64,000 bases of DNA from Bacilli bacterium. Its GTDB lineage: Bacteria > Bacillota_I > Bacilli_A > RFN20 > CAG-826. Below are positions 18,919 to 59,636 of this stretch, one piece after another. Position numbers and translations under genes: made by a program. The notes under the pieces are model-generated. The model had not been told where the DNA came from, searched no databases, and was given only the letters and a program-made list of their open reading frames with translations. Each line of letters begins with the position of its first letter. Position 1 is the first letter of the stretch. The DNA is taken from positions 128,001-192,000 of the forward strand of contig JAZLKX010000052.1 of the NCBI GenBank assembly GCA_045597865.1, read 5' to 3'.

Positions 18919-19363
18919 GAAACCAGCTGAACAGCCGTCCGAAGAAAAAGAAAAAACGATAGGTCTTTTTGACGTATTAGATATGATTCAGACAAAACGC
19001 ATTCCGTGGTCTGAACTTGACGAAGCTTATAAGAAAGCCTACAGCCAATACATGATAAACCGGTTCATTTCGTCTGTTGAAATGTATTTACCGATCTTGG
19101 CTAAGCTTTCTGAAATTAAACAGCTGACCGATGAGCAGCATTATACTATTTTGTGTAATATAATAGCAACAAAACATTGGTTCAACTATAAAACTTATAA
19201 GAAGGAAAAGACAGATAAAGACACAGAATTGCTTTTGTTTGCTATTACGAAAGAATATGAGATTGGTCGCCGTGAAGCCAAGACTTATATAAATAATTTA
19301 ACGGAAACGGTTAAGGATAAACTTCGCTCCAAGTGGACTGAGTTATACAATTCATTAAATTAG
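18893..19363 (+). CDS. gp62: clamp loader small subunit, T4 gp62-like
   Basis: LFDVL..I...K, YSQYMINRFIS, EYEIGRREAKTY match the gp62 pattern; gp44 lies upstream. Confidence 0.8.
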   Translation: MPKATTKTKKPAEQPSEEKEKTIGLFDVLDMIQTKRIPWSELDEAYKKAYSQYMINRFISSVEMYLPILAKLSEIKQLTDEQHYTILCNIIATKHWFNYKTYKKEKTDKDTELLLFAITKEYEIGRREAKTYINNLTETVKDKLRSKWTELYNSLN

Positions 19364-19372
19364 AGGAAACAA

Positions 19373-20899
19373 ATGAAAACATTTCGCGACTTTATTAACG
19401 AAGCTTCTGTTGGTGCATCGGATATCTATCCGGCATCTGTGAAGATCGTTAAGTTTTTAGAAAAGCGACTTGGCACAACTTTTAAGGAAGTTGATGGCCA
19501 GGAATACGCTAATGGCTCCGGTCAGTATTTTGGCCTTCTTTTTATTAGTCCTGATGGTAACGCTGCTATTCGTATTAACTGGGACGGAACATCATTCCAT
19601 TCAATTAACTGGTGGAACGACTATTCAAAGGAAATGGCTCCTGCATTTGAAATCTTCACTGGCAAGATCGCTCCTGCTCAGGCATCTTTCGCTCGCCTCC
19701 TACCTGAAATTGCGGAAATTATCGTAAATGGCGGAAAGACTGGCACAGAGGACGATGACGCTATGGATGAATTTGAGGAAGATCTCGAAGAATCCACAAT
19801 TAACGAAGATTACGAATACAACGGCAATGTTTATAAGTCAAAGGTTGAAATCGTCAATGCAATGTATGACGAAGGTAAATCAGTTGAAGAAATTAAATCT
19901 GCAACTGGCTATCCTCCTGGACATATTCGTAATTTGATTGCTAAGCATACAGGCGAAGGTGGTCCTGCTACTTCTAAGTCTGGTGCTATCAAGGTTGTTA
20001 AAGGTCAGCCGGAAACAATTACGCCGTCTAAAGCAACAAAGAAAGCACAAGCTATGCTTGACGATACTGAATATGCAGATCCGGATGTTGTCTTTAAGGA
20101 ACTTGATTCTTATGTAACATTGATTGGTAAAGGCCTTATGCCTGCTTTGATGATTACAGGTCAGGGCGGTGTTGGTAAATCATTTACCGTAACTGATGTT
20201 TTGAAGCGCTTTGGCAACAAGGGTGAAGATTACGTTATCATGAAGGGTCACTGTACTCCTCCTGCTATGTATAAGTTCTTGTACTACCATTATAACCAGA
20301 TCTGCGTATTTGATGACTGCGATAGCATCTTTGATACAGCAGATGGTATGAACATTCTTAAGTGTGCTTTGGACTCTGGTGACCCTCGTGAAATCTCTTG
20401 GATGTCAAAGGGTGCCGACATTGTTGATACATTCGGTATTGAAGACCATCAGGAAATTGAAGCTCGCCTTGCTGAATTTGCTGATGAACACGGTGGTAAA
20501 GAAGGTATCCCATCTTACTTCCAGTTTGAAGGTGCTGTAATCTTTATCTCTAACTTGTCAAAGAAAGATATTTACAAGAAGGACCGTGCATTGCCTTCTC
20601 GTTGCACCTGCATTGATATTACTCTTCGTGCTAAGGATGTTATTCGCCGTATTGAAACTGTGCTCCCACACATCAAGATCTTCGCTGCATTGAAGGGTCG
20701 TGGTAAGAATGGCGGCCGTGATATTACTAACGACGCAATTAAGAAGGAAGTTTTTGAATGGATCTCATCTGATGAATTCTTGAACGATCCTCGCATGCGT
20801 GGTAAGGAGCTGAACTTCCGCATGTTCAACCAAGTTTACACATATCGGTACGCGGAATTACCCGACTGGAAAACCTTAAGTTTCAGAGCCGGGGGTTAA
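19373..20899 (+). CDS. P-loop ATPase with HTH-like segment and capsid-targeting-like N-terminus
   Basis: ITGQGGVGKS Walker A, CVFDDCD Walker B, ALPSR arginine finger; N-terminus MKTFRDFINE; late promoter at 19288. Confidence 0.8.
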   Translation: MKTFRDFINEASVGASDIYPASVKIVKFLEKRLGTTFKEVDGQEYANGSGQYFGLLFISPDGNAAIRINWDGTSFHSINWWNDYSKEMAPAFEIFTGKIAPAQASFARLLPEIAEIIVNGGKTGTEDDDAMDEFEEDLEESTINEDYEYNGNVYKSKVEIVNAMYDEGKSVEEIKSATGYPPGHIRNLIAKHTGEGGPATSKSGAIKVVKGQPETITPSKATKKAQAMLDDTEYADPDVVFKELDSYVTLIGKGLMPALMITGQGGVGKSFTVTDVLKRFGNKGEDYVIMKGHCTPPAMYKFLYYHYNQICVFDDCDSIFDTADGMNILKCALDSGDPREISWMSKGADIVDTFGIEDHQEIEARLAEFADEHGGKEGIPSYFQFEGAVIFISNLSKKDIYKKDRALPSRCTCIDITLRAKDVIRRIETVLPHIKIFAALKGRGKNGGRDITNDAIKKEVFEWISSDEFLNDPRMRGKELNFRMFNQVYTYRYAELPDWKTLSFRAGG

Positions 20900-21032
20900 T
20901 TGTAAATTCTAATTTACAAAAAGGACAGATGGTATCATTCCCATTTGGCGGCGCTTACCGGAGCGCCGCCTAACTTTTATAAATAAACTAGACGAACCGG
21001 TAATTCGTCTTTAAATAAAGGAGAATGAAATG
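20900..21032 (+). promoter_or_regulatory. structured leader (4 hairpins plus late promoter) of nuclease-MTase copy 1
   Basis: Same architecture as 53963-54096 with compensatory changes; TATAAATA at 20978-20985. Confidence 0.8.
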
Positions 21033-22802
21033 ATTACTTGTAAAATCTGTAATCGTGAGCTTGCTTCTTTTCAAGCTCTTGGAATACACCTAAAATATTC
21101 TCATAAGAATTGTTGCGGCGAAACATATTACGCAACATACATCAAGCAACCAAATGAAGGAATATGCGTTTGTGGTAAGCCATGTGGTTTTATCTCATTA
21201 AAGCTAGGCTATCATAAATACTGTTCACATCAATGTCAGGTTGAAAATTCTATAGAAGCTGCATTAAAAACAAAAGAACTACATTATGGAAAAGGTAAAT
21301 ACCATTCAGATGAAGGACTGAAAGCAATATCAGCAGCAAATAAAGCCAATAAAGAAACACGTGTCAAAAAACTAAATGAAACTAATCTGAAAAAATATGG
21401 AACTGAATGGGCATCTCAAAATAAAACTGTAAAAGAAAAAACAGCAAATACTAACATACAAAATTGTGGTAATGCATGTTCTTTGCATGGCAGTAATCAA
21501 ACTAAGTCTGAAAATATATTTCTTGAAAAATTCGGCTGTAAGAATCCTATGCAAAACACGGAGATTAAGACAAAGCGTGATGCAACTAATCTTGAACGAT
21601 ATGGCGCATCATCACCGTTTGGTTCTGCTTTGTGCATAGAGAAACGCAAACAAAACTATTTTAACAAGACAGGGTATTTCTTCCCAGCACAGAATCCTGA
21701 TAATCATACAATGCGCAGAAAAGCATACTTGTATGACGGAATTTATTTTGATAGCTCATGGGAACTTGCGTTTTACATTTTTCACACTGAACAAAATCAT
21801 AACATAACTGCACATCCAGCTGTTACATTTGAGTATGAACATGCCGGCATAAAACACAATTATATGCCCGACTTTATATTAGATGGTCAACTTACTGAGA
21901 TAAAAGGACCGCAGTTCTTTAATGAATCTGGTGAAATGATAAATCCTTTTGATAGGAACCAGGACGCATTGTATGAAGCGAAACATCAGTGTATGTTAAA
22001 GAATAATGTGAAAATCATAACGGACTGTACTGAGTATATCAATTATGTTAATGAAAAATACACCAGTGACTATTTGGAACTTTTTAATGTTAAATCAGCA
22101 TTTCCATATCCAGCAGAAAAACCAAATCCAACCTATGACGACGTAATAAGAAAGTATCACAAGTCAATATGGCATGCAAAACGTTTTGGAATGTTATCGC
22201 CTTTTGAAGCATGGCAGGATAAAACTCTTATTAAGAAATGCGCAGCAAATCGTTTAAAGTATGTAAAACATTGTGATCCTGATTCTATAAGACAAGGATT
22301 TAATGTAATGAAACTTGCGCCTAAAGTTTCAGTGTTCAAGCCTTTGTTAGCAAAGCGTATTATTGAAACATATCTCGCAGATTTTGAAACAATCTTTGAC
22401 CCATTTAGCGGATTTAGCGGCCGAATGTATGGCACGTATCTTTGCGGTAAAAAATATATTGGACAAGACATTAATGAAACTCATGTAAACGAAAGCAATG
22501 AACTTATACATGACTACAATATGAATGCTACTGTTGTGTGTAAAGACATATTTGAAAGTGAAGGTGAGTATGAATGCTTGTTCACGTGCAGTCCATATCA
22601 TTTAAAAGAAATCTGGAATGAAAACGAAACTGACATGAGTTGTGACGAATGGATTGATGAATGCATTAAACGATTTAAATGTAAACGATATGTGTTTGTG
22701 GTTGATGAAACGGAAAAGTATAAAGACAAGATTGTTGAGCTGATTGAAAACAAATCACATTTTGGCACCAACAGTGAAAAACTTTTAGTTATTGATGTAT
22801 GA
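21030..22802 (+). CDS. homing-endonuclease-like nuclease / amino-methyltransferase fusion, copy 1
   Basis: C2H2 finger and CxC..YCS..C, KYG repeats, FDSSWE...YMPDF...EIKG PD-(D/E)XK nuclease, DPFSGFSGR (motif I), FTCSPY (motif IV-like). Confidence 0.8.
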   Translation: MITCKICNRELASFQALGIHLKYSHKNCCGETYYATYIKQPNEGICVCGKPCGFISLKLGYHKYCSHQCQVENSIEAALKTKELHYGKGKYHSDEGLKAISAANKANKETRVKKLNETNLKKYGTEWASQNKTVKEKTANTNIQNCGNACSLHGSNQTKSENIFLEKFGCKNPMQNTEIKTKRDATNLERYGASSPFGSALCIEKRKQNYFNKTGYFFPAQNPDNHTMRRKAYLYDGIYFDSSWELAFYIFHTEQNHNITAHPAVTFEYEHAGIKHNYMPDFILDGQLTEIKGPQFFNESGEMINPFDRNQDALYEAKHQCMLKNNVKIITDCTEYINYVNEKYTSDYLELFNVKSAFPYPAEKPNPTYDDVIRKYHKSIWHAKRFGMLSPFEAWQDKTLIKKCAANRLKYVKHCDPDSIRQGFNVMKLAPKVSVFKPLLAKRIIETYLADFETIFDPFSGFSGRMYGTYLCGKKYIGQDINETHVNESNELIHDYNMNATVVCKDIFESEGEYECLFTCSPYHLKEIWNENETDMSCDEWIDECIKRFKCKRYVFVVDETEKYKDKIVELIENKSHFGTNSEKLLVIDV

Positions 22803-23122
22803 ATGAAATTAGATTAAGTATCAAATTTTATAGGGATGAAACAGAAGTCTCTCCGTACACTGGTGTTGACTTACCGTTAATAAGACGGGCCTTCCCTCAG
22901 CTTCTGTCTGCCACAATGGTCGGCGTTCAACCAATGTCAAGTCCTACCGGTCTTGCTTATGCGTTAAGACCGCTATACCAAGACGACGAGATTCAGAATA
23001 CACCAGCTCCTGCACCAATCCCTAAACCGGCTAAGAAAAAGGTAAAACCTAATCACCCATTTTCATTGAATCCTGCTAAAAGTAAGTGTAGGAAAAATTT
23101 CTCTTACAAAAGAAACCCATAA
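22799..23122 (+). CDS. short protein containing a major capsid (gp23) conserved segment
   Basis: PLIRRAFPQLLSATMVGVQPMSSPTGLAYALRPLY matches the gp23 VRRA.P...GVQPM..PTG...A.R..Y signature. Confidence 0.7.
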   Translation: MNEIRLSIKFYRDETEVSPYTGVDLPLIRRAFPQLLSATMVGVQPMSSPTGLAYALRPLYQDDEIQNTPAPAPIPKPAKKKVKPNHPFSLNPAKSKCRKNFSYKRNP

Positions 23123-23160
23123 ATAAGTTGTTATATTTTAACGGTAGACAAAGGTAACAA

Positions 23161-23367
23161 ATGCTTAGTTTAAAATTTAAGAACAAAAGTTCCCGTGAGA
23201 TTCCAGCTGAACTTATGGCAGCAGTTGATTCTGATATTACTTACGAGGAAATCAATAAAATTCTGGACCAATATAATCTTCGTGTAAATGAATACGAAAA
23301 AGTATTTGACCATGATAATAATGAAGTTGAACAAATCTTTGTGATTGGAGATATAAATGTTGAGTAA
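23161..23367 (+). CDS. hypothetical protein
   Basis: AAGGT RBS, 68 aa. Confidence 0.6.
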   Translation: MLSLKFKNKSSREIPAELMAAVDSDITYEEINKILDQYNLRVNEYEKVFDHDNNEVEQIFVIGDINVE

Positions 23368-24712
23368 GAAATTAAAATGGGGATTTGTGCAACCGCTCAC
23401 GGGCGGTTTCTATCTTGGTGCTGAGAAGGCTATCGGCTGCCCAGCTGCTTGGATATTGTCTTACCCAGGTTTGTGTGCTCACCGTGATGCTGAAGATGGC
23501 TCATGCGTTAGCGCAGCAAATGAATATCACTTGTTGAAGTACTTGCAGAAGAAAAATCGTCTTCCGCCTTACTTGACAATTAACCGTGAGATGTTTGCGG
23601 AATTTAAAGGCGACCCGAATGCTTTTGAACCAGAGTTGATTAGAAATGAATTTTCAACTACTGATACCATTGATACCACAAACATGGATATCGTCTGTGC
23701 TTTGCCTGTATGTTCTGGTTTGTCAAATGCAACAACCACACCTAATGATGAAACACGCGAAGCTCGTAATCAGAACATGCAGTGGATAACTGAATATGTT
23801 CTTCGTAAGATTAAGCCAAAGGCATACATCTTTGAAAATGCACCTGCACTTTTTGCTGGCGCTAAAGGTAAACCTATTCGTGAATACATCAATAAGGTTG
23901 CAGAAGAAACGGGTTATTCAGTTTCTTACTTCAAGACTGATACCATGCTTCATCATAATGCACAGCGCCGTCCGCGTACATTTGTTATTTGCTGGCAGTG
24001 GACCGGTGATACAAAGCAGATGCCGCCGATCATTAACTTTGTGAAGGACGAAGTTTCTATTAAGCAGTTCTTTGATGAAATGCCACAATATGAACAGACA
24101 GAACAGATTCCGCTTGGTTATTCCAATCAAGCTGCATTGGACTATATGAAGTCTGCCCACCCTGATGACTATCGTGAATTGCTTAAGGAAAATACTTCAT
24201 ACGCTCATATCATTCAGAATAATGAACGTGAAGCGTTTATCAAGTTCTGTGAAAATTATACCTTTGATGATGCACCTAGCACAAAACATCGTGATTCTAC
24301 TATTCGTCAGATTAACCATGCTCAAGAAAAGTATGACGCTGGCAGTTGGATCTTTGATACAACTACTGCTGTGATTGATGATAAGAAGAAAATTCCTAGC
24401 ATCATGCATAAAGTTACACAAGCAAAGCTGCATCCTTACGAAGATCGTCTGCTTAATGTAGGTGAAATTTTGTATTGCATGGGTATGCCTACAGACTATT
24501 ACATTTATGGCCAAACATTTGAGAAGACACATCAAACTGGTCAGAATGTTCCAGTAAATACAGCTAAGTACATTGTCAGCGAAATCGTTCGTGTTGTTGA
24601 AAATTGGGAAACTGCTAGAAACGAAACGAATGGTAATCCTTTCTTCGGTGAAGATGACAATGTAGAATATGTTGACAATACAAAGCAGACATATTCCTGT
24701 AAGTCGGAATAG
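23357..24712 (+). CDS. atypical DNA cytosine-C5 methyltransferase-like protein A
   Basis: QPLTGG in the motif I position, PVCSGLS (motif IV), FENAP (VI), QRRPRTF (VIII), R.L...E....MGMP (IX), GQNVP (X). Confidence 0.8.
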   Translation: MLSKKLKWGFVQPLTGGFYLGAEKAIGCPAAWILSYPGLCAHRDAEDGSCVSAANEYHLLKYLQKKNRLPPYLTINREMFAEFKGDPNAFEPELIRNEFSTTDTIDTTNMDIVCALPVCSGLSNATTTPNDETREARNQNMQWITEYVLRKIKPKAYIFENAPALFAGAKGKPIREYINKVAEETGYSVSYFKTDTMLHHNAQRRPRTFVICWQWTGDTKQMPPIINFVKDEVSIKQFFDEMPQYEQTEQIPLGYSNQAALDYMKSAHPDDYRELLKENTSYAHIIQNNEREAFIKFCENYTFDDAPSTKHRDSTIRQINHAQEKYDAGSWIFDTTTAVIDDKKKIPSIMHKVTQAKLHPYEDRLLNVGEILYCMGMPTDYYIYGQTFEKTHQTGQNVPVNTAKYIVSEIVRVVENWETARNETNGNPFFGEDDNVEYVDNTKQTYSCKSE

Positions 24713-53962: not shown

Positions 53963-54096
53963 GTAAACAAAATTTTACATTAAGGACAGATAGGTTGTCA
54001 ATTCCTATTTGGCAGGGCACGCCAATGCCCTGCCTAACTTATATAAATAATATAGACGAATTGGCGTTCGTCTTAAAATAAAGGAAATTGACAATG
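53963..54096 (+). promoter_or_regulatory. structured leader (4 hairpins plus late promoter) of nuclease-MTase copy 2
   Basis: Homologous to 20900-21032 with covarying stems and loops; TATAAATA at 54042-54049. Confidence 0.8.
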
Positions 54097-55839
54097 GATA
54101 TAGAAAATGCTATTTTTATTGATGAAAATGCAGATCTTCATCAAATTAAAAACACCAATACAGTAAAATTCATATGCAAAGACTGCGATAACGCAGTCTA
54201 TATGATTTTTAAATGCTTCAAAAAATCCAAATTATTTTTGTGTAAGTCTTGTAAAACAAAAAAGACATGCACCGTTAAATATGGCAGTCCAAATATGTTT
54301 GCGTCAGATGCTTTAAAGCAGGCGAGACTGAAAAAACAAAATGGCAAATGGATAACCGATGATGCTAAAGAAAAAATGAAAACGACTAAGACAGAAAAAT
54401 ACGATGATCCGTATTATACAAATAGAGCAAAATCAGCAGAATCCTTTAAACGTCACAAAGAAGAAAAACCGCATTTCTTAGAAAGCATTAAAGAAAAAAC
54501 AAAAAATACATGCATGCAAAAATATAATGTTGAACATGTTTCACATACACAAGAATGGCAAGATAAACATAAATTAACTTGTTTAGAAAAATACGGCACC
54601 GAATGGTATTTTCAGTCAAATGACGCTAAAACCAAAATAACGCAATCATTGCTTACTAGATATAATGTTGAACATGCACTACAATGCGATAAATTTAAAA
54701 CCAAGGCATTTAGCAAACATGGCATGACACGTCCTGAAAAAAAGATTTATGAATTTTTAACTAATCGTAAATTTCAATTCAAACACCAGTATGCAGTCAA
54801 TGGCAAGTCATTTGATTTTGCGATTTTTAATAATGATAAATTGGAAATCTTAATTGAAATAGACGGCGTGTATTTTCATGGACTGTTGGAAGACTGCAAT
54901 GGCAAACACAGCCGCGGTGAACTAGACCATGAAAGATTTGCATTAGTTCCAGAAAATGTTAAATTTATAGTATGCGATGACAAAAATATTGACGCATGTT
55001 TTAGTGAAATTCTAAAAGTGTATGATATTAACTATGATAAATGGATTGATGATATGATTGAAGCATTACCGGCTAATTTTCCATACCCATCATATACTTT
55101 GAAACGAATGATGAAAGATTATGATCATTTAATTAAAAACGATTATAACAAACACGCAAATTTAGGATTAAGTATCATTCATAACTTTCATAAATCAATA
55201 TGGACTGCGCATCGTGAAAATATGTTATCTCCAGTATCATGCTGGCAAGATCCTGAAAAGTTAAAAAAATCAGTTAAGAATCGTGTAATATACAGTTCAT
55301 CATTATCATCACAGCAAATTGCTCGTGGATTTAATATTAGTGGTATAGCGAAAACCGTTTCAGTTTTCAACGCATCATTAGCAAAACACATCATTGAAAC
55401 ATATCTTGCTGAATATGATACTGTTTTTGACCCATTTAGCGGTTTTAGTGGCAGAATGCTTGGAACATGTGCATGTAATAAAAAGTACATTGGCCAAGAT
55501 ATCAATGAAAAACATGTAAACGAAAGCAATGAAATCATCAAAACATTTAATCTAAATGCAGCAGTCACAGAAAAAGACATATTTGAAAGCGAAGGTGAGT
55601 ATGACTGCCTATTTACATGCAGTCCGTATCATTTAAAAGAAATCTGGAATGAAACTGAAACTGACATGAGCTGCGATGCATGGATTGACGAATGTCTTAA
55701 ACGATTTAAATGTAAACGATATGTGTTTGTGGTTGACGAAACGGAAAAGTATAAAGACTTCGTTGCTGAGACATTAGTCAATAAAAGTCATTTTGGTAAA
55801 AACAATGAATTTATCATCGTAATAAATAATATAAAATAA
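54094..55839 (+). CDS. homing-endonuclease-like nuclease / amino-methyltransferase fusion, copy 2 (Vsr/DUF559-type nuclease)
   Basis: CxxC..CxxC, KYG/KYN repeats, TRPEKKI...FDF...IEIDGVYFH, DPFSGFSGR, FTCSPY; ATG 54094 preferred by RBS spacing. Confidence 0.8.
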   Translation: MDIENAIFIDENADLHQIKNTNTVKFICKDCDNAVYMIFKCFKKSKLFLCKSCKTKKTCTVKYGSPNMFASDALKQARLKKQNGKWITDDAKEKMKTTKTEKYDDPYYTNRAKSAESFKRHKEEKPHFLESIKEKTKNTCMQKYNVEHVSHTQEWQDKHKLTCLEKYGTEWYFQSNDAKTKITQSLLTRYNVEHALQCDKFKTKAFSKHGMTRPEKKIYEFLTNRKFQFKHQYAVNGKSFDFAIFNNDKLEILIEIDGVYFHGLLEDCNGKHSRGELDHERFALVPENVKFIVCDDKNIDACFSEILKVYDINYDKWIDDMIEALPANFPYPSYTLKRMMKDYDHLIKNDYNKHANLGLSIIHNFHKSIWTAHRENMLSPVSCWQDPEKLKKSVKNRVIYSSSLSSQQIARGFNISGIAKTVSVFNASLAKHIIETYLAEYDTVFDPFSGFSGRMLGTCACNKKYIGQDINEKHVNESNEIIKTFNLNAAVTEKDIFESEGEYDCLFTCSPYHLKEIWNETETDMSCDAWIDECLKRFKCKRYVFVVDETEKYKDFVAETLVNKSHFGKNNEFIIVINNIK

Positions 55840-57172: not shown

Positions 57173-57838
57173 ATGGAAGACGCAAAGTATCTTTTGCAGG
57201 AAGCCAACCTAGGCGACCAGCGCTCAATCTGCGAAGACTATAACGGTGAAAAATTCATGTACTTGGAAGGTCCGTTCCTTGGTGCTGAAAAACGTAACCG
57301 TAATGGTCGCATTTATAAGCGTTCTCTTATTGAACGCGAAGTTAACAAGTTCCAGACAATGATTAAGAATGCTGAATCTTTTGGCGAGTTGAACCATCCT
57401 GATTCTGCTGTTCCTAATCCTGACCGTTTCGGCGTTTTGATTACCAAGCTTGATATGGACGGCGACCTTGCTATCGGTAAGGCTCGTGTTTTGCCTACGC
57501 CTTGTGGTAAGACTATTGAAGGCATTATCCGTGGCGGTGGCCGTTTGGGTATGAGTTCTCGTGGCACAGGTTCACTTGGTGCAGACAATATCGTTTGTGA
57601 AGACTATAATTTGATTACTATTGACTGTGTATTCATGCCGTCTTGTCCAGATGCATATGTGAACGCCGTTAATGAATCTACTCAATGGGTTCTTGACGAA
57701 TCTACCAATCTTTATATCGAAAAGAAGGTTGCTGTTGACCAAGCTTATAATAAGTTCCACAAGGAAATTGATAAACGCGGCTCAAAAGCAATAGTCAATG
57801 CTTTTAAAGACTATTTGAATGTGATTAAAGGTTGCTAA
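57173..57838 (+). CDS. gp21: prohead protease, T4 gp21-like
   Basis: YLEGPF..AE.RNRNGRIY, GELNHP, G.ARVL.TP.G, LGMSSRGTGSL, D.V..PS.PDAY. Confidence 0.95.
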   Translation: MEDAKYLLQEANLGDQRSICEDYNGEKFMYLEGPFLGAEKRNRNGRIYKRSLIEREVNKFQTMIKNAESFGELNHPDSAVPNPDRFGVLITKLDMDGDLAIGKARVLPTPCGKTIEGIIRGGGRLGMSSRGTGSLGADNIVCEDYNLITIDCVFMPSCPDAYVNAVNESTQWVLDESTNLYIEKKVAVDQAYNKFHKEIDKRGSKAIVNAFKDYLNVIKGC

Positions 57839-57914
57839 TAAATAGAGTACAGCTAAGCCAGAACTTAGCTGTATTTTTATAAGTTAACGCCGTCTAAATA
57901 CCGAGGTGTCCTGA

Positions 57915-59636
57915 ATGATTTGTAAAGAATGTGGATGTGATGTTGGCTCGCTAGGTATGCACATTAAGCATAAACATGGAATGAATGCTGAAACATACTA
58001 TAATAAACATATAGCTGCAACTAATGGAATTTGTAAAACATGTGGAAAGCCAACAAAATTCATTGGTATAGAAAAAGGCGGATATAGACAATACTGCAGT
58101 GTTAAATGCATGGCTAATTCTGAAGAAATTAAAGATAAGCGTGAACAGACTAATCTTAAAATTCGTGGAGTCAAATGTAATCTAGCTTCAGCAGAAAATC
58201 GTGAAAAACAGTATGAAACGTGCCTAAAGAAATATGGAACGAAATTTCCACAACAGTTAGATAGCATTAAAGAGAAGGCGAAAACAACCAATCTTGAAAG
58301 ACGCGGAACTGAATGGTTTGTGCAAACAGATGAATTTAAAGAAAAGATAAAACAGAACTGTTTGAATAAATCAGATGGAAAATACACATGGACTTCGCAG
58401 TTTCCTGAAACCATTGAAAAACGTGTTGCTGCGTTTAAAGAAAATCATGAACAATGGTTAAACCGTTATACCGAAACGTGCAATGAACGTTATGGCGTAA
58501 ACAATCCAATGCAAGTTCCGGAAATTCGTAAAAGATCTCAGCACAAATATACATATGATGGAATTAACTTCGACAGTAGTGCAGAACTGGCATATTATAT
58601 CTGGCTTACAGACAAAAATGTTAAGTTTGAATACCAGCCAAATGTTTCATTTAGTTTTGCTTATAATGGAAAAGAACATTCATATCAGCCAGATTTTCTA
58701 GTAGATGGCAAATACATAGAACTAAAAGGAAGTTACTTTTTTGAAAATGGTAAAATGATAAACCCGTATGACAGAACACAAGACGGTTTATACGAAGCAA
58801 AACATCAATGTATGATTGCTAATAATGTACAGATAGTCACTGATTATTCGTCATACAAAAACTATGTAGACGAAAAGTATACAAAAGACTTTCTTCAACT
58901 ATTTAGAAATGATCTTCCATTTCCATATATAAATGCTGACTTATCTGATACAAGTGATTTAGGCGTAATTCATCACTTTCATAAATCAATATATGAAGCT
59001 TCCAGAAAAAATACCGTTTCGCCGCTGCTTGCGTGGGAAAACAAAGAATTGGTTAAGAAGTGTGCATTGAATAGACTTAAATATGTTAAACGTTGTAAGC
59101 CGGGAGATATTCTTCAGGGATTTAATGTTGCCAAAATAGCGCCAAAAGTTTCATTATTTAAGCCAACATTGGCTGAAAGGCTAATAAACAAATATCTTGC
59201 CAAATATGATACCGTTTTTGACCCATTTAGTGGTTTTTCGGGAAGAATGATCGGCTGTGAGAACTGTGGCAAAAAATATATTGGACAAGACATAAATGAA
59301 AAACATATATCTGAAGGAAACGAAATCATTGCATATAAAAACTATCAAAATAGCAGCTTAGCCGTTCAGGATGTTTTAACCGATACCAATAAGAAATTTG
59401 CGTGTTTGTTTACTTGTCCACCCTATGGCGGTAAAGAACATTGGAATATAAATAATGATGAAGTTGAAAAAACATGCGATGAATGGATAGATATCTGTTT
59501 AGAAAAGTATGATTGTGAATCATATCTTTTTGTTGTGGATAAAACTAATAAATATAAATATAATATCGTTGAAACTATTACTAATAAAAGTCATTTTGGC
59601 AACAATAATGAATATGTTATATTCATAAAGAGGTAA
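57915..59636 (+). CDS. homing-endonuclease-like nuclease / amino-methyltransferase fusion, copy 3
   Basis: C2H2 finger, CKTC..YCS..C, KYG repeats, FDSSAE...YQPDF...ELKG, DPFSGFSGR, FTCPPY. Confidence 0.8.
   Translation: MICKECGCDVGSLGMHIKHKHGMNAETYYNKHIAATNGICKTCGKPTKFIGIEKGGYRQYCSVKCMANSEEIKDKREQTNLKIRGVKCNLASAENREKQYETCLKKYGTKFPQQLDSIKEKAKTTNLERRGTEWFVQTDEFKEKIKQNCLNKSDGKYTWTSQFPETIEKRVAAFKENHEQWLNRYTETCNERYGVNNPMQVPEIRKRSQHKYTYDGINFDSSAELAYYIWLTDKNVKFEYQPNVSFSFAYNGKEHSYQPDFLVDGKYIELKGSYFFENGKMINPYDRTQDGLYEAKHQCMIANNVQIVTDYSSYKNYVDEKYTKDFLQLFRNDLPFPYINADLSDTSDLGVIHHFHKSIYEASRKNTVSPLLAWENKELVKKCALNRLKYVKRCKPGDILQGFNVAKIAPKVSLFKPTLAERLINKYLAKYDTVFDPFSGFSGRMIGCENCGKKYIGQDINEKHISEGNEIIAYKNYQNSSLAVQDVLTDTNKKFACLFTCPPYGGKEHWNINNDEVEKTCDEWIDICLEKYDCESYLFVVDKTNKYKYNIVETITNKSHFGNNNEYVIFIKR

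What the first reader, a model, noticed from the sequence alone, without database searches (positions are those of the whole stretch)
20900..21032. Conserved four-hairpin leader with covarying kissing loops and loop-to-RBS pairing ahead of nuclease-MTase genes
Seen in two copies (20900-21032 and 53963-54096), each starting right after an upstream GGTTAA stop. The order is H0 GTAAA..TTTAC, AAGGAC, H1, H2, TAACTT, TATAAATA, H3 (AGACGAA/TTCGTCT), AAATAAAGGA, start codon. The H2 stem covaries (GGCGGCGCT/AGCGCCGCC versus GGCAGGGCA/TGCCCTGCC). The H2 loop is the exact complement of the H3 loop in both copies although the sequences differ: TACCGG(20956-61)/CCGGTA(20997-21002) and CGCCAA(54020-25)/TTGGCG(54061-66). 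The H1 loop is complementary to the RBS-start spacer in both: TCATTC(20935-40)/GAATGA(21023-28) and TTGTCAATT(53995-54003)/AATTGACAA(54086-94). Established: T4 I-TevI is silenced on early read-through mRNA by an RBS-occluding hairpin that late transcripts lack. Inference: a double-pseudoknot translational lock present only on read-through transcripts. Alternatives are copy-specific inverted operator or methylation sites flanking the promoter, or a ribozyme or mobility RNA.
Basis: partly seen in the sequence, partly recalled or inferred. Interest (0 to 1): 0.9.

Follow-up and report, generated by a model that had tools for sequence, protein, structure and literature searches.

The report
RNA lock before phage endonuclease genes
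A conserved leader of about 110 bases in front of selfish nuclease genes of large T4-like phages has two hairpin loops that can pair with the gene's ribosome-binding site and with a third hairpin, which most likely keeps the gene silent on read-through messages and active only from its own late promoter.

Summary
Both window copies have the stated hairpins and loop complementarities at the stated coordinates. A third full copy lies outside the window on the same 266-kb phage contig, with a third set of loop sequences.

Searches that did not use the loops found 34 non-redundant members in viral, metagenome and genome contigs. In 34 of 34, one upstream loop is at least 6 nt Watson-Crick complementary to the loop of the hairpin after TATAAATA. 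In 29 of 34, the other upstream loop is at least 6 nt complementary to the -16..+5 region of the start codon. Non-cognate pairs reach 6 nt in about 10%, and 0 of 10,000 permutations reached the observed total.

There are two topologies: H1 to RBS with H2 to H3, or H1 to H3 with H2 to RBS. The leader precedes homing-endonuclease genes of several unrelated families, not only nuclease-MTase fusions.

Best reading (0.6): a cis RNA lock on transcripts that read through from upstream, absent from transcripts started at the internal late promoter. This is a new architecture of the known T4 I-TevI/mobE/gene e principle. It has no Rfam match, and I found no description in print. The function is inferred, not shown.

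The parts
20897..20899 (+). Stop codon of the upstream same-strand ORF (19373-20899). Copy 1 of the leader begins right after it.
20902..20917 (+). H0 hairpin (GTAAAT/ATTTAC). Local to this genome's copies, not a family feature.
20921..20928 (+). Conserved block AAGGACAG. Role unknown.
20927..20946 (+). H1. The stem is AGATGG/CCATTT, and its second pair is G.U in 28 of 28 members. The loop TATCATTC is complementary to GAATGA (21023-28) and to AATGAT (21029-34).
20947..20970 (+). H2. G+C-rich, terminator-like hairpin. Loop TACCGG (20956-61) is complementary to the H3 loop.
20978..20985 (+). TATAAATA, a T4-type late-promoter-like octamer that splits the leader.
20990..21010 (+). H3. Stem AGACGAA/TTCGTCT, loop CCGGTAA. 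It would lie at the 5' end of RNA started at TATAAATA.
21020..21032 (+). SD GGAG, spacer and ATG of the ZnF-DUF7487-MTase gene. Target of the H1 loop.
21030..22802 (+). Homing-endonuclease-like gene, 590 aa: C2H2 zinc finger, DUF7487, N6/N4 MTase-like C-terminal half.
53963..53978 (+). Copy 2, H0 hairpin.
53982..54010 (+). Copy 2. AAGGACAG block and H1 (AGATAGG/CCTATTT). Loop TTGTCAATT (53995-54003) is complementary to AATTGACAA (54086-94).
54011..54034 (+). Copy 2, H2 (GGCAGGGCA/TGCCCTGCC), loop CGCCAA.
54042..54049 (+). Copy 2, TATAAATA.
54054..54073 (+). Copy 2, H3 (AGACGAA/TTCGTCT), loop TTGGCG.
54082..54096 (+). Copy 2. SD-like AGGA, spacer and ATG (54094). Target of the H1 loop.
54094..55839 (+). 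Paralogous DUF7487-MTase gene, 581 aa.

Best explanation
The element is the 5' leader of free-standing homing-endonuclease genes in a group of uncultured large T4-like phages.

Architecture: it is built on a terminator-then-late-promoter junction. Upstream of TATAAATA sit a conserved block (A/G)(A/G)GGACAG and two abutting hairpins, H1 and H2. Downstream sit a hairpin (H3) at about the 5' end of the promoter's own transcript, an A-rich linker, the SD and the start codon.

On RNA that enters from the upstream gene, one upstream loop kisses the H3 loop. This is a 6-8 bp contact, usually UUNNNG with CNNNAA. The other upstream loop pairs with the SD-to-AUG stretch (6-13 bp), in some members extending into the 3' arm of its own hairpin. 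Together the two contacts hide the ribosome-binding site.

RNA started at the internal TATAAATA lacks H1 and H2, so its RBS is free and H3 is a 5'-terminal hairpin. The result is that the nuclease is translated only from its own promoter and is insulated from the abundant mRNA of the neighbouring gene.

Shown: the anatomy, the covariation, the positions of the partners and the pairing energies.

Inferred: that TATAAATA is a promoter here, where transcripts start, that the pairings form in vivo, and that they block translation.
For: 1. Complementarity is cognate-specific. In 28 non-redundant members, the H1 loop matches its own downstream part by at least 6 nt WC in 27 of 28, and the H2 loop in 25 of 28. 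Non-cognate pairs reach this in 11% and 10%. Of 10,000 permutations, 0 reach the observed sum (370 against a mean of 237, sd 8.4).
2. Duplex energies agree. Own versus others: -7.9 versus -3.7 kcal/mol for H1, and -6.5 versus -3.7 for H2.
3. The targets are not random. The kissing target is in the H3 loop in 28 of 28. The other target lies within -16..+5 of the start in 23 of 28.
4. Six further members each have exactly these two matches. Five (L016, L028, L032, L042, L453) came from the covariance model or the genome-contig scan. The sixth, a second copy in L145, came from a looser script pattern.
5. The search patterns and the model contained no H3 or RBS sequence.
6. Stems covary. On the 28-sequence alignment, 9 of 14 H1/H2 pairs show double-sided changes, and the second H1 pair is G.U in 28 of 28. 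More distant members change the H1 base compensatorily, AGGT/ACTT and AGTC/GATT. H3 stems differ in almost every member. Stem mismatches in H2 and H3 are 5 G.U and 0 A.C, which fits RNA of the + strand.
7. Two topologies exist, 16 class A and 8 class B. Class B is interleaved, which a DNA cruciform or a dimeric operator does not explain.
8. In 15 class A members the H1 hairpin is weak (-2.6 to -6.5 kcal/mol), while loop plus 3' arm pairs with the RBS region at -7.0 to -18.0.
9. In the folded late-start RNAs of copies 1 and 2 the SD is unpaired.
10. TATAAATA is over-represented and strand-biased. The window has 16 (15 on +) against 5.1 expected. C52 has 43 on + and 3 on -. Of the 43, 10 are preceded by a terminator-like hairpin, against 22 of 2000 random positions.
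11. The leader is 130 of 130 identical to L009, while the flanking coding DNA is 86-93% identical.
12. The family precedes nuclease genes of different folds. Above Pfam's cut-off: DUF7487, GIY-YIG, DUF559 and NUMOD3.
13. Precedent: T4 I-TevI/II/III, segB, Aeh1 mobE and genes e and soc are silenced on long transcripts by an RBS-sequestering structure that late-promoter transcripts lack (passages read in PMC2988022 and PMC3014915).
Against: - No transcript ends, RNA probing or expression data exist. The only RNA-library material is one assembled contig of a relative that spans 20851-21398, and DNA carry-over cannot be excluded.
- Nested folding does not capture the lock. Mean unpaired probability of -15..+3 is 0.42 in the long leader, 0.61 in the late-start RNA and 0.47 with the upstream part shuffled (long versus shuffled p = 0.24). 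The proposed contacts are pseudoknots, which the program cannot model.
- The loop pairings show no G.U over A.C excess (401 versus 409 summed lengths). RNA rather than DNA therefore rests on the stems, the RBS position and the topology.
- 5 of 34 members lack a 6-nt WC match to the RBS window. These are L200, L288, L318 and L349, and L296b with 5 nt, or 9 with one G.U.
- The upstream gene of copy 1 looks late as well, so the lock cannot be a simple early/late switch.
- If H2 terminates well, little read-through RNA would exist to lock. Copy 1 passes a terminator scan and copy 2 does not.
- 4 of 28 members have another exact TATAAATA 5-9 nt before GGACAG. It would make a late RNA that carries the lock.
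- I did not verify that this phage has a T4 gp55-type late sigma factor.
Confidence: 0.6

Rival explanations
1. Trans-acting, co-directional antisense. The H1-H2 module would be released either as the 3' end of upstream transcripts terminated at H2, or as a roughly 60-nt RNA from an extra late promoter just before GGACAG. Its two loops would bind the H3 loop and the RBS of separately made endonuclease mRNAs and so hold down their translation.
For: H2 is terminator-like in copy 1, and terminator-then-TATAAATA is a recurrent junction in this phage (10 of 43 sites). Four of 28 members have an exact TATAAATA 5-9 nt upstream of GGACAG. The three copies in C52, and the two copies each on the contigs of L296 and of L184/L234, all carry different loop codes. 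Loop-loop contact is how known antisense RNAs start pairing (recalled: CopA/CopT, RNAI/RNAII).
Against: Class B H2 hairpins are A+T-rich with no T-run, so they are not terminators. Copy 2's H2 fails the terminator scan. The extra promoter is absent in 24 of 28. Cis pairing is kinetically favoured and explains the same data. Different codes in one genome are also expected from drift with compensation.
Confidence: 0.15
2. An RNA processing or stability element. The folded leader would serve as a nuclease entry site or barrier that separates the endonuclease mRNA from the upstream message or sets its half-life. RBS overlap would be secondary.
For: H3 would sit at the very 5' end of the late RNA, which is a classical stabiliser position (the stabiliser role is recalled). 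The GGACAG block is conserved with no pairing partner. A module without a promoter or nuclease gene sits between two tRNA genes, where processing is expected.
Against: It does not explain why one partner falls on the SD or start codon in 29 of 34 members. The helices are 6-13 bp, shorter than the roughly two helical turns that RNase III is recalled to need.
Confidence: 0.1
3. A mobile regulatory cassette whose conserved ends serve recombination, as PeSLs do. The hairpins would be only a terminator and a 5' stabiliser.
For: Break-points fall exactly at the promoter. L019 has about 730 nt with ORFs inserted between the H2 tail and TATAAATA. L163 keeps H1-H2-TATAAATA but has other DNA downstream. 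C52:1803-1859 is a module with no promoter or gene. PeSL cassettes (promoter plus terminator stem-loop) drive modular shuffling in RB49/phi1 (abstract of PMC2839356).
Against: Recombination does not explain the cognate loop-to-loop and loop-to-RBS complementarity or its covariation. It may be an added property rather than an alternative.
Confidence: 0.07
4. DNA-level sites: inverted operator, methylation or cleavage sites of the encoded protein flanking the promoter, by analogy with I-TevI autorepression.
For: I-TevI binds an operator overlapping its late promoter (passage in PMC2988022). The window genes carry an MTase-like domain. In class A the complements are nested inverted repeats around TATAAATA.
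Against: The same leader format serves DUF7487, GIY-YIG, DUF559/Vsr-like and NUMOD3-bearing proteins with and without an MTase. The sites always lie in hairpin loops. One site always covers the SD or start. Class B is interleaved. An invariant G.U and 5 G.U against 0 A.C in the stems point to RNA.
Confidence: 0.03
5. A ribozyme or mobility RNA.
For: The element is a compact, conserved, multi-hairpin RNA next to mobile genes.
Against: There is no Rfam match at E up to 10. The conserved single-stranded sequence is limited to a promoter octamer, GGACAG and UAAC. The variable loops pair with the translation start.
Confidence: 0.02

Closest known systems
RBS-sequestering structures with an internal late promoter: T4 I-TevI/II/III, segB, genes e, soc and 49; Aeromonas phage Aeh1 mobE
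   Same: TATAAATA lies directly upstream of a late or homing-endonuclease gene. The SD or start is complementary to sequence that lies 5' of the late start, so only long transcripts can hide the RBS. Aeh1 mobE is listed in the reviews' reference lists under 'multiple controls' (title only seen).
   Different: In those cases one contiguous hairpin holds the RBS. Here the anti-RBS sits in the loop of a separate hairpin 60-90 nt upstream. A second, covarying loop-loop contact (H2-H3 or H1-H3) is added. Two permuted topologies exist. The read-through RNA is probably late as well. The leader is a conserved sequence family shared by unrelated nuclease genes.
Hairpins with TATAAATA upstream of free-standing endonuclease genes in marine metagenomes (Dassa et al. 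2009, PMC2677866)
   Same: The setting is uncultured T4-like phage DNA. The 5' UTR hairpins of GIY-YIG and Vsr-like endonuclease genes include TATAAATA in 10 of their hairpins, and two conserved motifs complement each other (passages read).
   Different: The paper describes single hairpins. Its main text has no mention of kissing, pseudoknot or GGACAG. The motif sequences are in a supplementary figure that I could not open, so overlap with this family cannot be excluded.
PeSL mobile regulatory cassettes of RB49/phi1 (Arbiol et al. 2010, PMC2839356)
   Same: Small repeated intergenic cassettes of a terminator stem-loop plus a promoter, with recombination break-points at the cassette (abstract). 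Here, 10 of 43 TATAAATA sites follow a terminator-like hairpin, and L019, L163 and C52:1803 show break-points at the leader.
   Different: PeSLs use sigma-70-type early promoters and have no reported loop complementarity to the downstream RBS.
Kissing-loop antisense control (CopA/CopT, RNAI/RNAII, hok/sok; recalled, not read here)
   Same: Pairing of 6-7 nt between hairpin loops acts as the specific first contact, and the outcome is a block of translation.
   Different: Those regulators are transcribed from the opposite strand and act in trans. Here both partners are on the same strand and, in the preferred reading, on the same molecule.

Membership tests
T4-type late-promoter / RBS-sequestration control (I-TevI, mobE, gene e type) | TATAAATA late-promoter octamer directly upstream of the regulated gene | tested here: met
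   Present 42-46 nt before the ATG in copies 1-3 and, by the search design, in all pattern-found members. Also present in 5 of 8 members aligned from the covariance model search. The octamer is enriched and strand-biased.
T4-type late-promoter / RBS-sequestration control (I-TevI, mobE, gene e type) | SD or start codon complementary to sequence located 5' of the late transcription start | tested here: met
   29 of 34 non-redundant members have at least 6 nt WC within -16..+5.
T4-type late-promoter / RBS-sequestration control (I-TevI, mobE, gene e type) | One contiguous hairpin that holds the RBS, with the promoter inside or beside its 5' arm | tested here: not met
   The partner is a hairpin loop 60-90 nt upstream, and two other hairpins lie between. 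It works like the family but is not the same structure. A paralogue fragment at C52:196277 does have the classical form.
T4-type late-promoter / RBS-sequestration control (I-TevI, mobE, gene e type) | Translation repressed on long transcripts and active on late transcripts | not testable with these tools
   Needs reporters or toeprints.
Any Rfam family | Covariance-model match | tested here: not met
   Only 3 chance-level hits (E 1.9-4.2, 15-16 bits against gathering scores of 55-75) in 20700-21200.
Intrinsic terminator (H2) | G+C-rich stem-loop followed by a T-run | tested here: inconclusive
   Copy 1 passes the scan and copy 2 does not. With a looser rule all three C52 copies pass. Class B H2 hairpins are A+T-rich without a T-run.
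PeSL-like mobile regulatory cassette | Repeated terminator-plus-promoter unit with recombination break-points | tested here: met
   10 of 43 TATAAATA sites follow a terminator-like hairpin, against 22 of 2000 random positions. Break-points are seen in L019, L163 and C52:1803.
PeSL-like mobile regulatory cassette | Sigma-70-type early promoter | tested here: not met
   No convincing -35/-10 pair in the leaders. The promoter-like element is TATAAATA.
Antisense kissing-loop regulators | Complementary hairpin loops of about 6-7 nt | tested here: met
   34 of 34.
Antisense kissing-loop regulators | Regulator transcribed from the opposite strand, or from another locus, and acting in trans | tested here: not met
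   Both partners are on the + strand, 35-45 nt apart. Trans action of a same-strand RNA was not testable.
I-TevI-type operator autorepression | Binding site of the encoded nuclease overlapping its promoter and resembling its homing site | not testable with these tools
   The homing sites are unknown. The complementary hexamers flank the octamer rather than overlapping it, and they occur with unrelated nuclease families.

The most novel reading that the evidence does not exclude
The two variable loops are a private two-part RNA address. Each endonuclease gene would carry its own orthogonal kissing code (UUNNNG/CNNNAA) plus its own anti-RBS code. The H1-H2 module would be a portable, separately released RNA: either the 3' end of the terminated upstream message, or a roughly 60-nt late RNA from the extra promoter seen in 4 of 28 members. 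It would act in trans on its cognate mRNA, including that of a co-infecting relative. That would make this a natural family of programmable, same-strand antisense regulators riding on selfish genes.
Probability: 0.15. Interest if true: 0.85.

Novelty: new variant of a known kind. Interest (0 to 1): 0.72.

Why it matters
- It would add a well-supported, covarying RNA family to phage biology, in which structured cis-regulators outside model phages are almost unknown.
- It shows how large uncultured T4-like phages keep several families of selfish nucleases quiet: terminator, then RNA lock, then the gene's own promoter.
- It offers a natural set of dozens of orthogonal loop-loop and loop-RBS pairs in one common scaffold. 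This can be tested directly with reporters and could be useful for designing translational switches.
- The two permuted topologies are a rare natural experiment on how much geometry such a lock tolerates.
- In practice, the leader is a marker for homing-endonuclease cassettes and for late-promoter use in metagenomic phage contigs.

Tried and rejected
Searches that found no known match:
- Rfam at E up to 10 on 20700-21200: nothing meaningful.
- Megablast of 19000-24000, and blastn of the leader, against deposited phages: no homologue, only short RBS-like matches.
- PDB sequence search with the 590-aa protein: 0 hits.
- NCBIfam: nothing useful for the nuclease genes.

Ideas tested and dropped:
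- A leader peptide starting at the ATG inside AGATGG. The ATG is absent wherever the stem reads AGATAGG, so it is not conserved.
- A sigma-70 promoter in front of H1. There is no convincing pair of hexamers.

Tests that were uninformative:
- Nested thermodynamic folding as a test of occlusion. It cannot tell the real upstream part from a shuffled one.
- G.U versus A.C asymmetry in the loop pairings.
- A partner for GGACAG. None was found, and the block is not a genome-wide motif.

Other results:
- H3-like hairpins are not a general feature of late promoters here. Only 13 of 43 TATAAATA sites have any hairpin by a lenient rule.
- Sequencing runs: one RNA-library run (X1) holds a relative, kept as assembled contigs only. 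They show no starts, ends or strand. Runs X23 and X24 laid nothing.
The metagenome scan and the first viral scan were also capped, so counts of members are lower bounds.

Not done or not available:
- I did not check for a gp55-type late sigma factor, because I lacked a family accession.
- Claim of 'not in print': it rests on searches, and on passages read in PMC2988022, PMC3014915, PMC2677866 and the abstract of PMC2839356. Subscription journals are not covered.
Full report
**Setting**

The window is bases 128001-192000 of contig C52 (266 kb, 39% G+C). The contig sits in a 1.74-Mb, 58-contig bin whose other large contigs have 31-36% G+C. Nearly all ORFs of at least 90 aa in the window lie on the + strand. 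One ORF matches the N-terminus of the T4 Gp23 capsid family. The contig starts with a cluster of 20 tRNA genes. The closest deposited relative of its helicase is a Lak megaphage at 35% identity.

The octamer TATAAATA occurs 16 times in the window (15 on +) against 5.1 expected; 0 of 100 shuffles reach 16. In C52 it occurs 43 times on + and 3 times on -. Most sites lie shortly before an SD and ATG. Ten of the 43 directly follow a terminator-like hairpin, against 22 of 2000 random positions. I therefore read C52 as a large T4-like phage contig that uses a T4-type late-promoter motif and often joins genes by a terminator-then-promoter unit. That TATAAATA is a late promoter here is an inference from T4. 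I did not locate a gp55 homologue.

**The observation**

The two copies align at 81% mean column identity, with the differences concentrated in the stems and loops.

A BLAST and motif search of the whole bin found a third full copy at C52:113015-113125. It lies ahead of a shorter paralogue (327 aa) that has the same zinc-finger N-terminus. Its H2 (GGGAGCTG/CAGCTCCC) and H3 (AGCAGA/TCTGCT) stems differ from the window copies. Its H2 loop TTGCCG is again the exact complement of its H3 loop CGGCAA. Its H1 loop holds ACCTCG opposite CGAGGT of the SD.

A fourth paralogue in the window (57915-59636) has a different, simple leader. A paralogue fragment at C52:196277 has a classical SD-sequestering hairpin.

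**The family**

I scanned public contigs with patterns made only of the conserved block, the H1/H2 junction and the octamer, and with relatives of the protein. A parser that demands an H1 stem, an H2 stem and the UAAC/UUAC tail kept 36 distinct sequences. These reduce to 28 that are non-redundant by their loop pairs. L163, whose downstream half is replaced, was left out.

A covariance model of the H1-H2-promoter part (R1) gave two results:
- In the bin it found the three copies plus a module at C52:1803-1859 that has no promoter and no gene, between tRNA-Pro and tRNA-Ser.
- It hit 9 of the 64 protein-homologue loci.

From these hits, from one genome-contig hit and from a second copy in L145 found by a looser script pattern, I took six further non-redundant members as a validation set: L016, L028, L032, L042, the second copy in L145, and L453.

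**Stems**

RNAalifold on the 28 sequences predicts H1 and H2. Nine of the 14 pairs change on both sides while keeping the pair. The four pairs at the base of H1 are fixed partly by my search pattern, and the second of them is G.U in 28 of 28. In the model-found members the base itself covaries (AGGT/ACTT, AGTC/GATT, AGAC/GTTT) while the G.U stays.

H3 is a hairpin of 4-13 pairs with a different stem in nearly every member. It starts 0-10 nt, most often 4 nt, after the octamer. With mismatches of any kind allowed, the H2 and H3 stems hold 5 G.U and 0 A.C.

**Loops**

- The longest Watson-Crick match between a member's H1 loop and its own downstream part is at least 6 nt in 27 of 28. For the H2 loop it is 25 of 28.
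- Against other members' downstream parts, 6 nt is reached in 11% and 10% of pairs.
- The summed observed length is 370, against 237 (sd 8.4) in 10,000 permutations. None reaches 370.
- Duplex energies say the same: -7.9 against -3.7 kcal/mol, and -6.5 against -3.7.
- The targets are specific. One is always the H3 loop (28 of 28). The other lies within -16..+5 of the start codon in 23 of 28.
- In each of the six validation members, the only matches of 6 nt or more between the upstream module and the downstream part are these two.

**Two topologies**

In 16 of the 28, and in all six validation members, H1 addresses the RBS and H2 addresses H3. This is class A, which includes the three C52 copies. 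In 8 of the 28, H1 addresses H3 and H2 addresses the RBS (class B). In the remaining 4 the H1-H3 contact is present but the RBS match is weak or displaced.

The kissing loop is nearly always UUNNNG upstream and CNNNAA in H3. In copy 2 and L194 it is the reverse. The anti-RBS loop is the larger one.

**Energetics of class A**

H1 itself is weak, at -2.6 to -6.5 kcal/mol in 15 members. Its loop, with part of its 3' arm, can pair with the RBS region at -7.0 to -18.0 kcal/mol. The L194 value in that call is an artefact of a misplaced slice. In L032 the complement is 13 nt and covers the whole 3' arm. In copy 2 the nested minimum-energy fold already opens H1 in favour of a 12-13-bp helix over AGGAAAUUGACAAU. 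The contact may therefore start in the loop and spread by strand exchange.

**What the leader serves**

The downstream ORFs of 20 members were scanned.
- Above Pfam's cut-offs: DUF7487 (5 members, plus the two window genes), NUMOD3 (5), GIY-YIG/SegE-like (1) and DUF559/Vsr-like (1).
- HNH matches (2) fall just below the cut-offs.
- Two ORFs have no match.

PHROGs calls the window proteins homing endonucleases. An MTase-like C-terminal half occurs only in some members (the window copies and L079). Class B leaders often follow tRNA genes, as segB does in T4 (abstract of PMC2330249 in the listing). The element is therefore a general leader of free-standing homing-endonuclease genes in this phage group.

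**Selection and break-points**

Copy 1 is 130 of 130 identical to L009, while the flanking coding DNA is 86-93% identical.

Break-points fall at the promoter:
- L019, a near relative of the copy 3 locus, has about 730 nt with ORFs inserted exactly between the H2 tail and TATAAATA.
- L163 keeps the upstream half and the octamer, but not H3 or the gene.

**Mechanism**

The preferred reading follows the established T4 logic. Long transcripts hide the RBS, and transcripts from a late promoter placed inside the control region cannot (passages in PMC2988022 and PMC3014915). Here the two upstream partners and the two downstream partners are split exactly by the octamer.

Because the upstream gene of copy 1 has its own TATAAATA, I take the purpose to be insulation from neighbouring late messages rather than timing. 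The start point of T4 late transcripts, a few bases after the octamer, is recalled and not read here. It would put H3 at the 5' end of the late RNA.

The weak points are listed in the Against line:
- There is no direct RNA evidence.
- Nested folding cannot show the lock.
- The loop contacts show no G.U excess.
- 5 of 34 members lack the RBS match.
- 4 of 28 have an extra upstream octamer, which keeps a trans-acting small-RNA model alive.

**Comparison and novelty**

The element works like the I-TevI/mobE/gene e controls but fails their structural definition, a single RBS hairpin. It resembles PeSL cassettes as a repeated terminator-promoter unit, but with a late-type promoter. It uses loop-loop contacts as antisense RNAs do, but on the same strand. 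Dassa et al. (PMC2677866) saw single hairpins with TATAAATA before free-standing endonuclease genes in marine metagenomes. Their main text has no kissing or pseudoknot model, and I could not see their motif figure. Rfam has nothing, deposited phages have no homologue, and five literature searches found no description. I rate it a new variant of a known kind.

Noticed in passing
G000:C52:1803-1859 (outside the window; L368:1501-1557): An H1-H2 module (36.9 bits with model R1) lies between tRNA-Pro and tRNA-Ser in a 20-tRNA cluster. It has no TATAAATA, H3 or nuclease gene. It is followed by about 70 nt that looks tRNA-like but is not called by ARAGORN. It could be a relic of a lost cassette or an independent use of the module.
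   Followed up: partly
window 57915-59636, leader 57830-57914: A fourth paralogue (573 aa, 45% identical to the copy 1 protein) has a different leader: a terminator-like hairpin, no H1 or H3, and TATAAGTT instead of TATAAATA.
   Followed up: partly
G000:C52:196200-196610 (outside the window): An N-terminal fragment of the same protein family is preceded by a classical hairpin (AACCTCTA...TAGAGGTT) that sequesters the SD. A TCTAAATA late-promoter-like sequence lies in its loop.
   Followed up: no
window 22799-23122: A 107-aa ORF has a start that overlaps the stop of the copy 1 nuclease gene (ATGA). It matches only the N-terminal propeptide part of the Gp23 major capsid family (profile positions 7-49). 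It may be a capsid-targeted small protein or a piece of a broken capsid gene.
   Followed up: no
window 23357-24712: A 451-aa cytosine-5 DNA methyltransferase-like gene (dcm superfamily, below cut-off) lies two genes after the nuclease-MTase gene.
   Followed up: no
L019:679-1500, compared with G000:C52:113015-113125: In a near relative, about 730 nt carrying ORFs sits exactly between the H2 tail and TATAAATA of the copy 3 leader. The two halves keep their matching loops but lie about 780 nt apart.
   Followed up: partly
whole contig C52: TATAAATA occurs 43 times on the + strand and 3 times on the - strand. Ten of the 43 follow a terminator-like hairpin. The phage contig (39% G+C) is binned with contigs of 31-36% G+C, so it is probably not part of that organism's chromosome.
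   Followed up: partly
G000:C52:113003-113010; also L136, L200, L272: A second exact TATAAATA lies 5-9 nt upstream of the GGACAG block in 4 of 28 members. It would start a late RNA right at the module.
   Followed up: partly
window 20891-21083: Contigs of related strains in one RNA-library run and one DNA run list no differences between 20890 and 21084, while the flanks differ every 10-30 nt. The table was truncated, so this is only a hint. L009 confirms 130 of 130 identity for the leader.
   Followed up: partly
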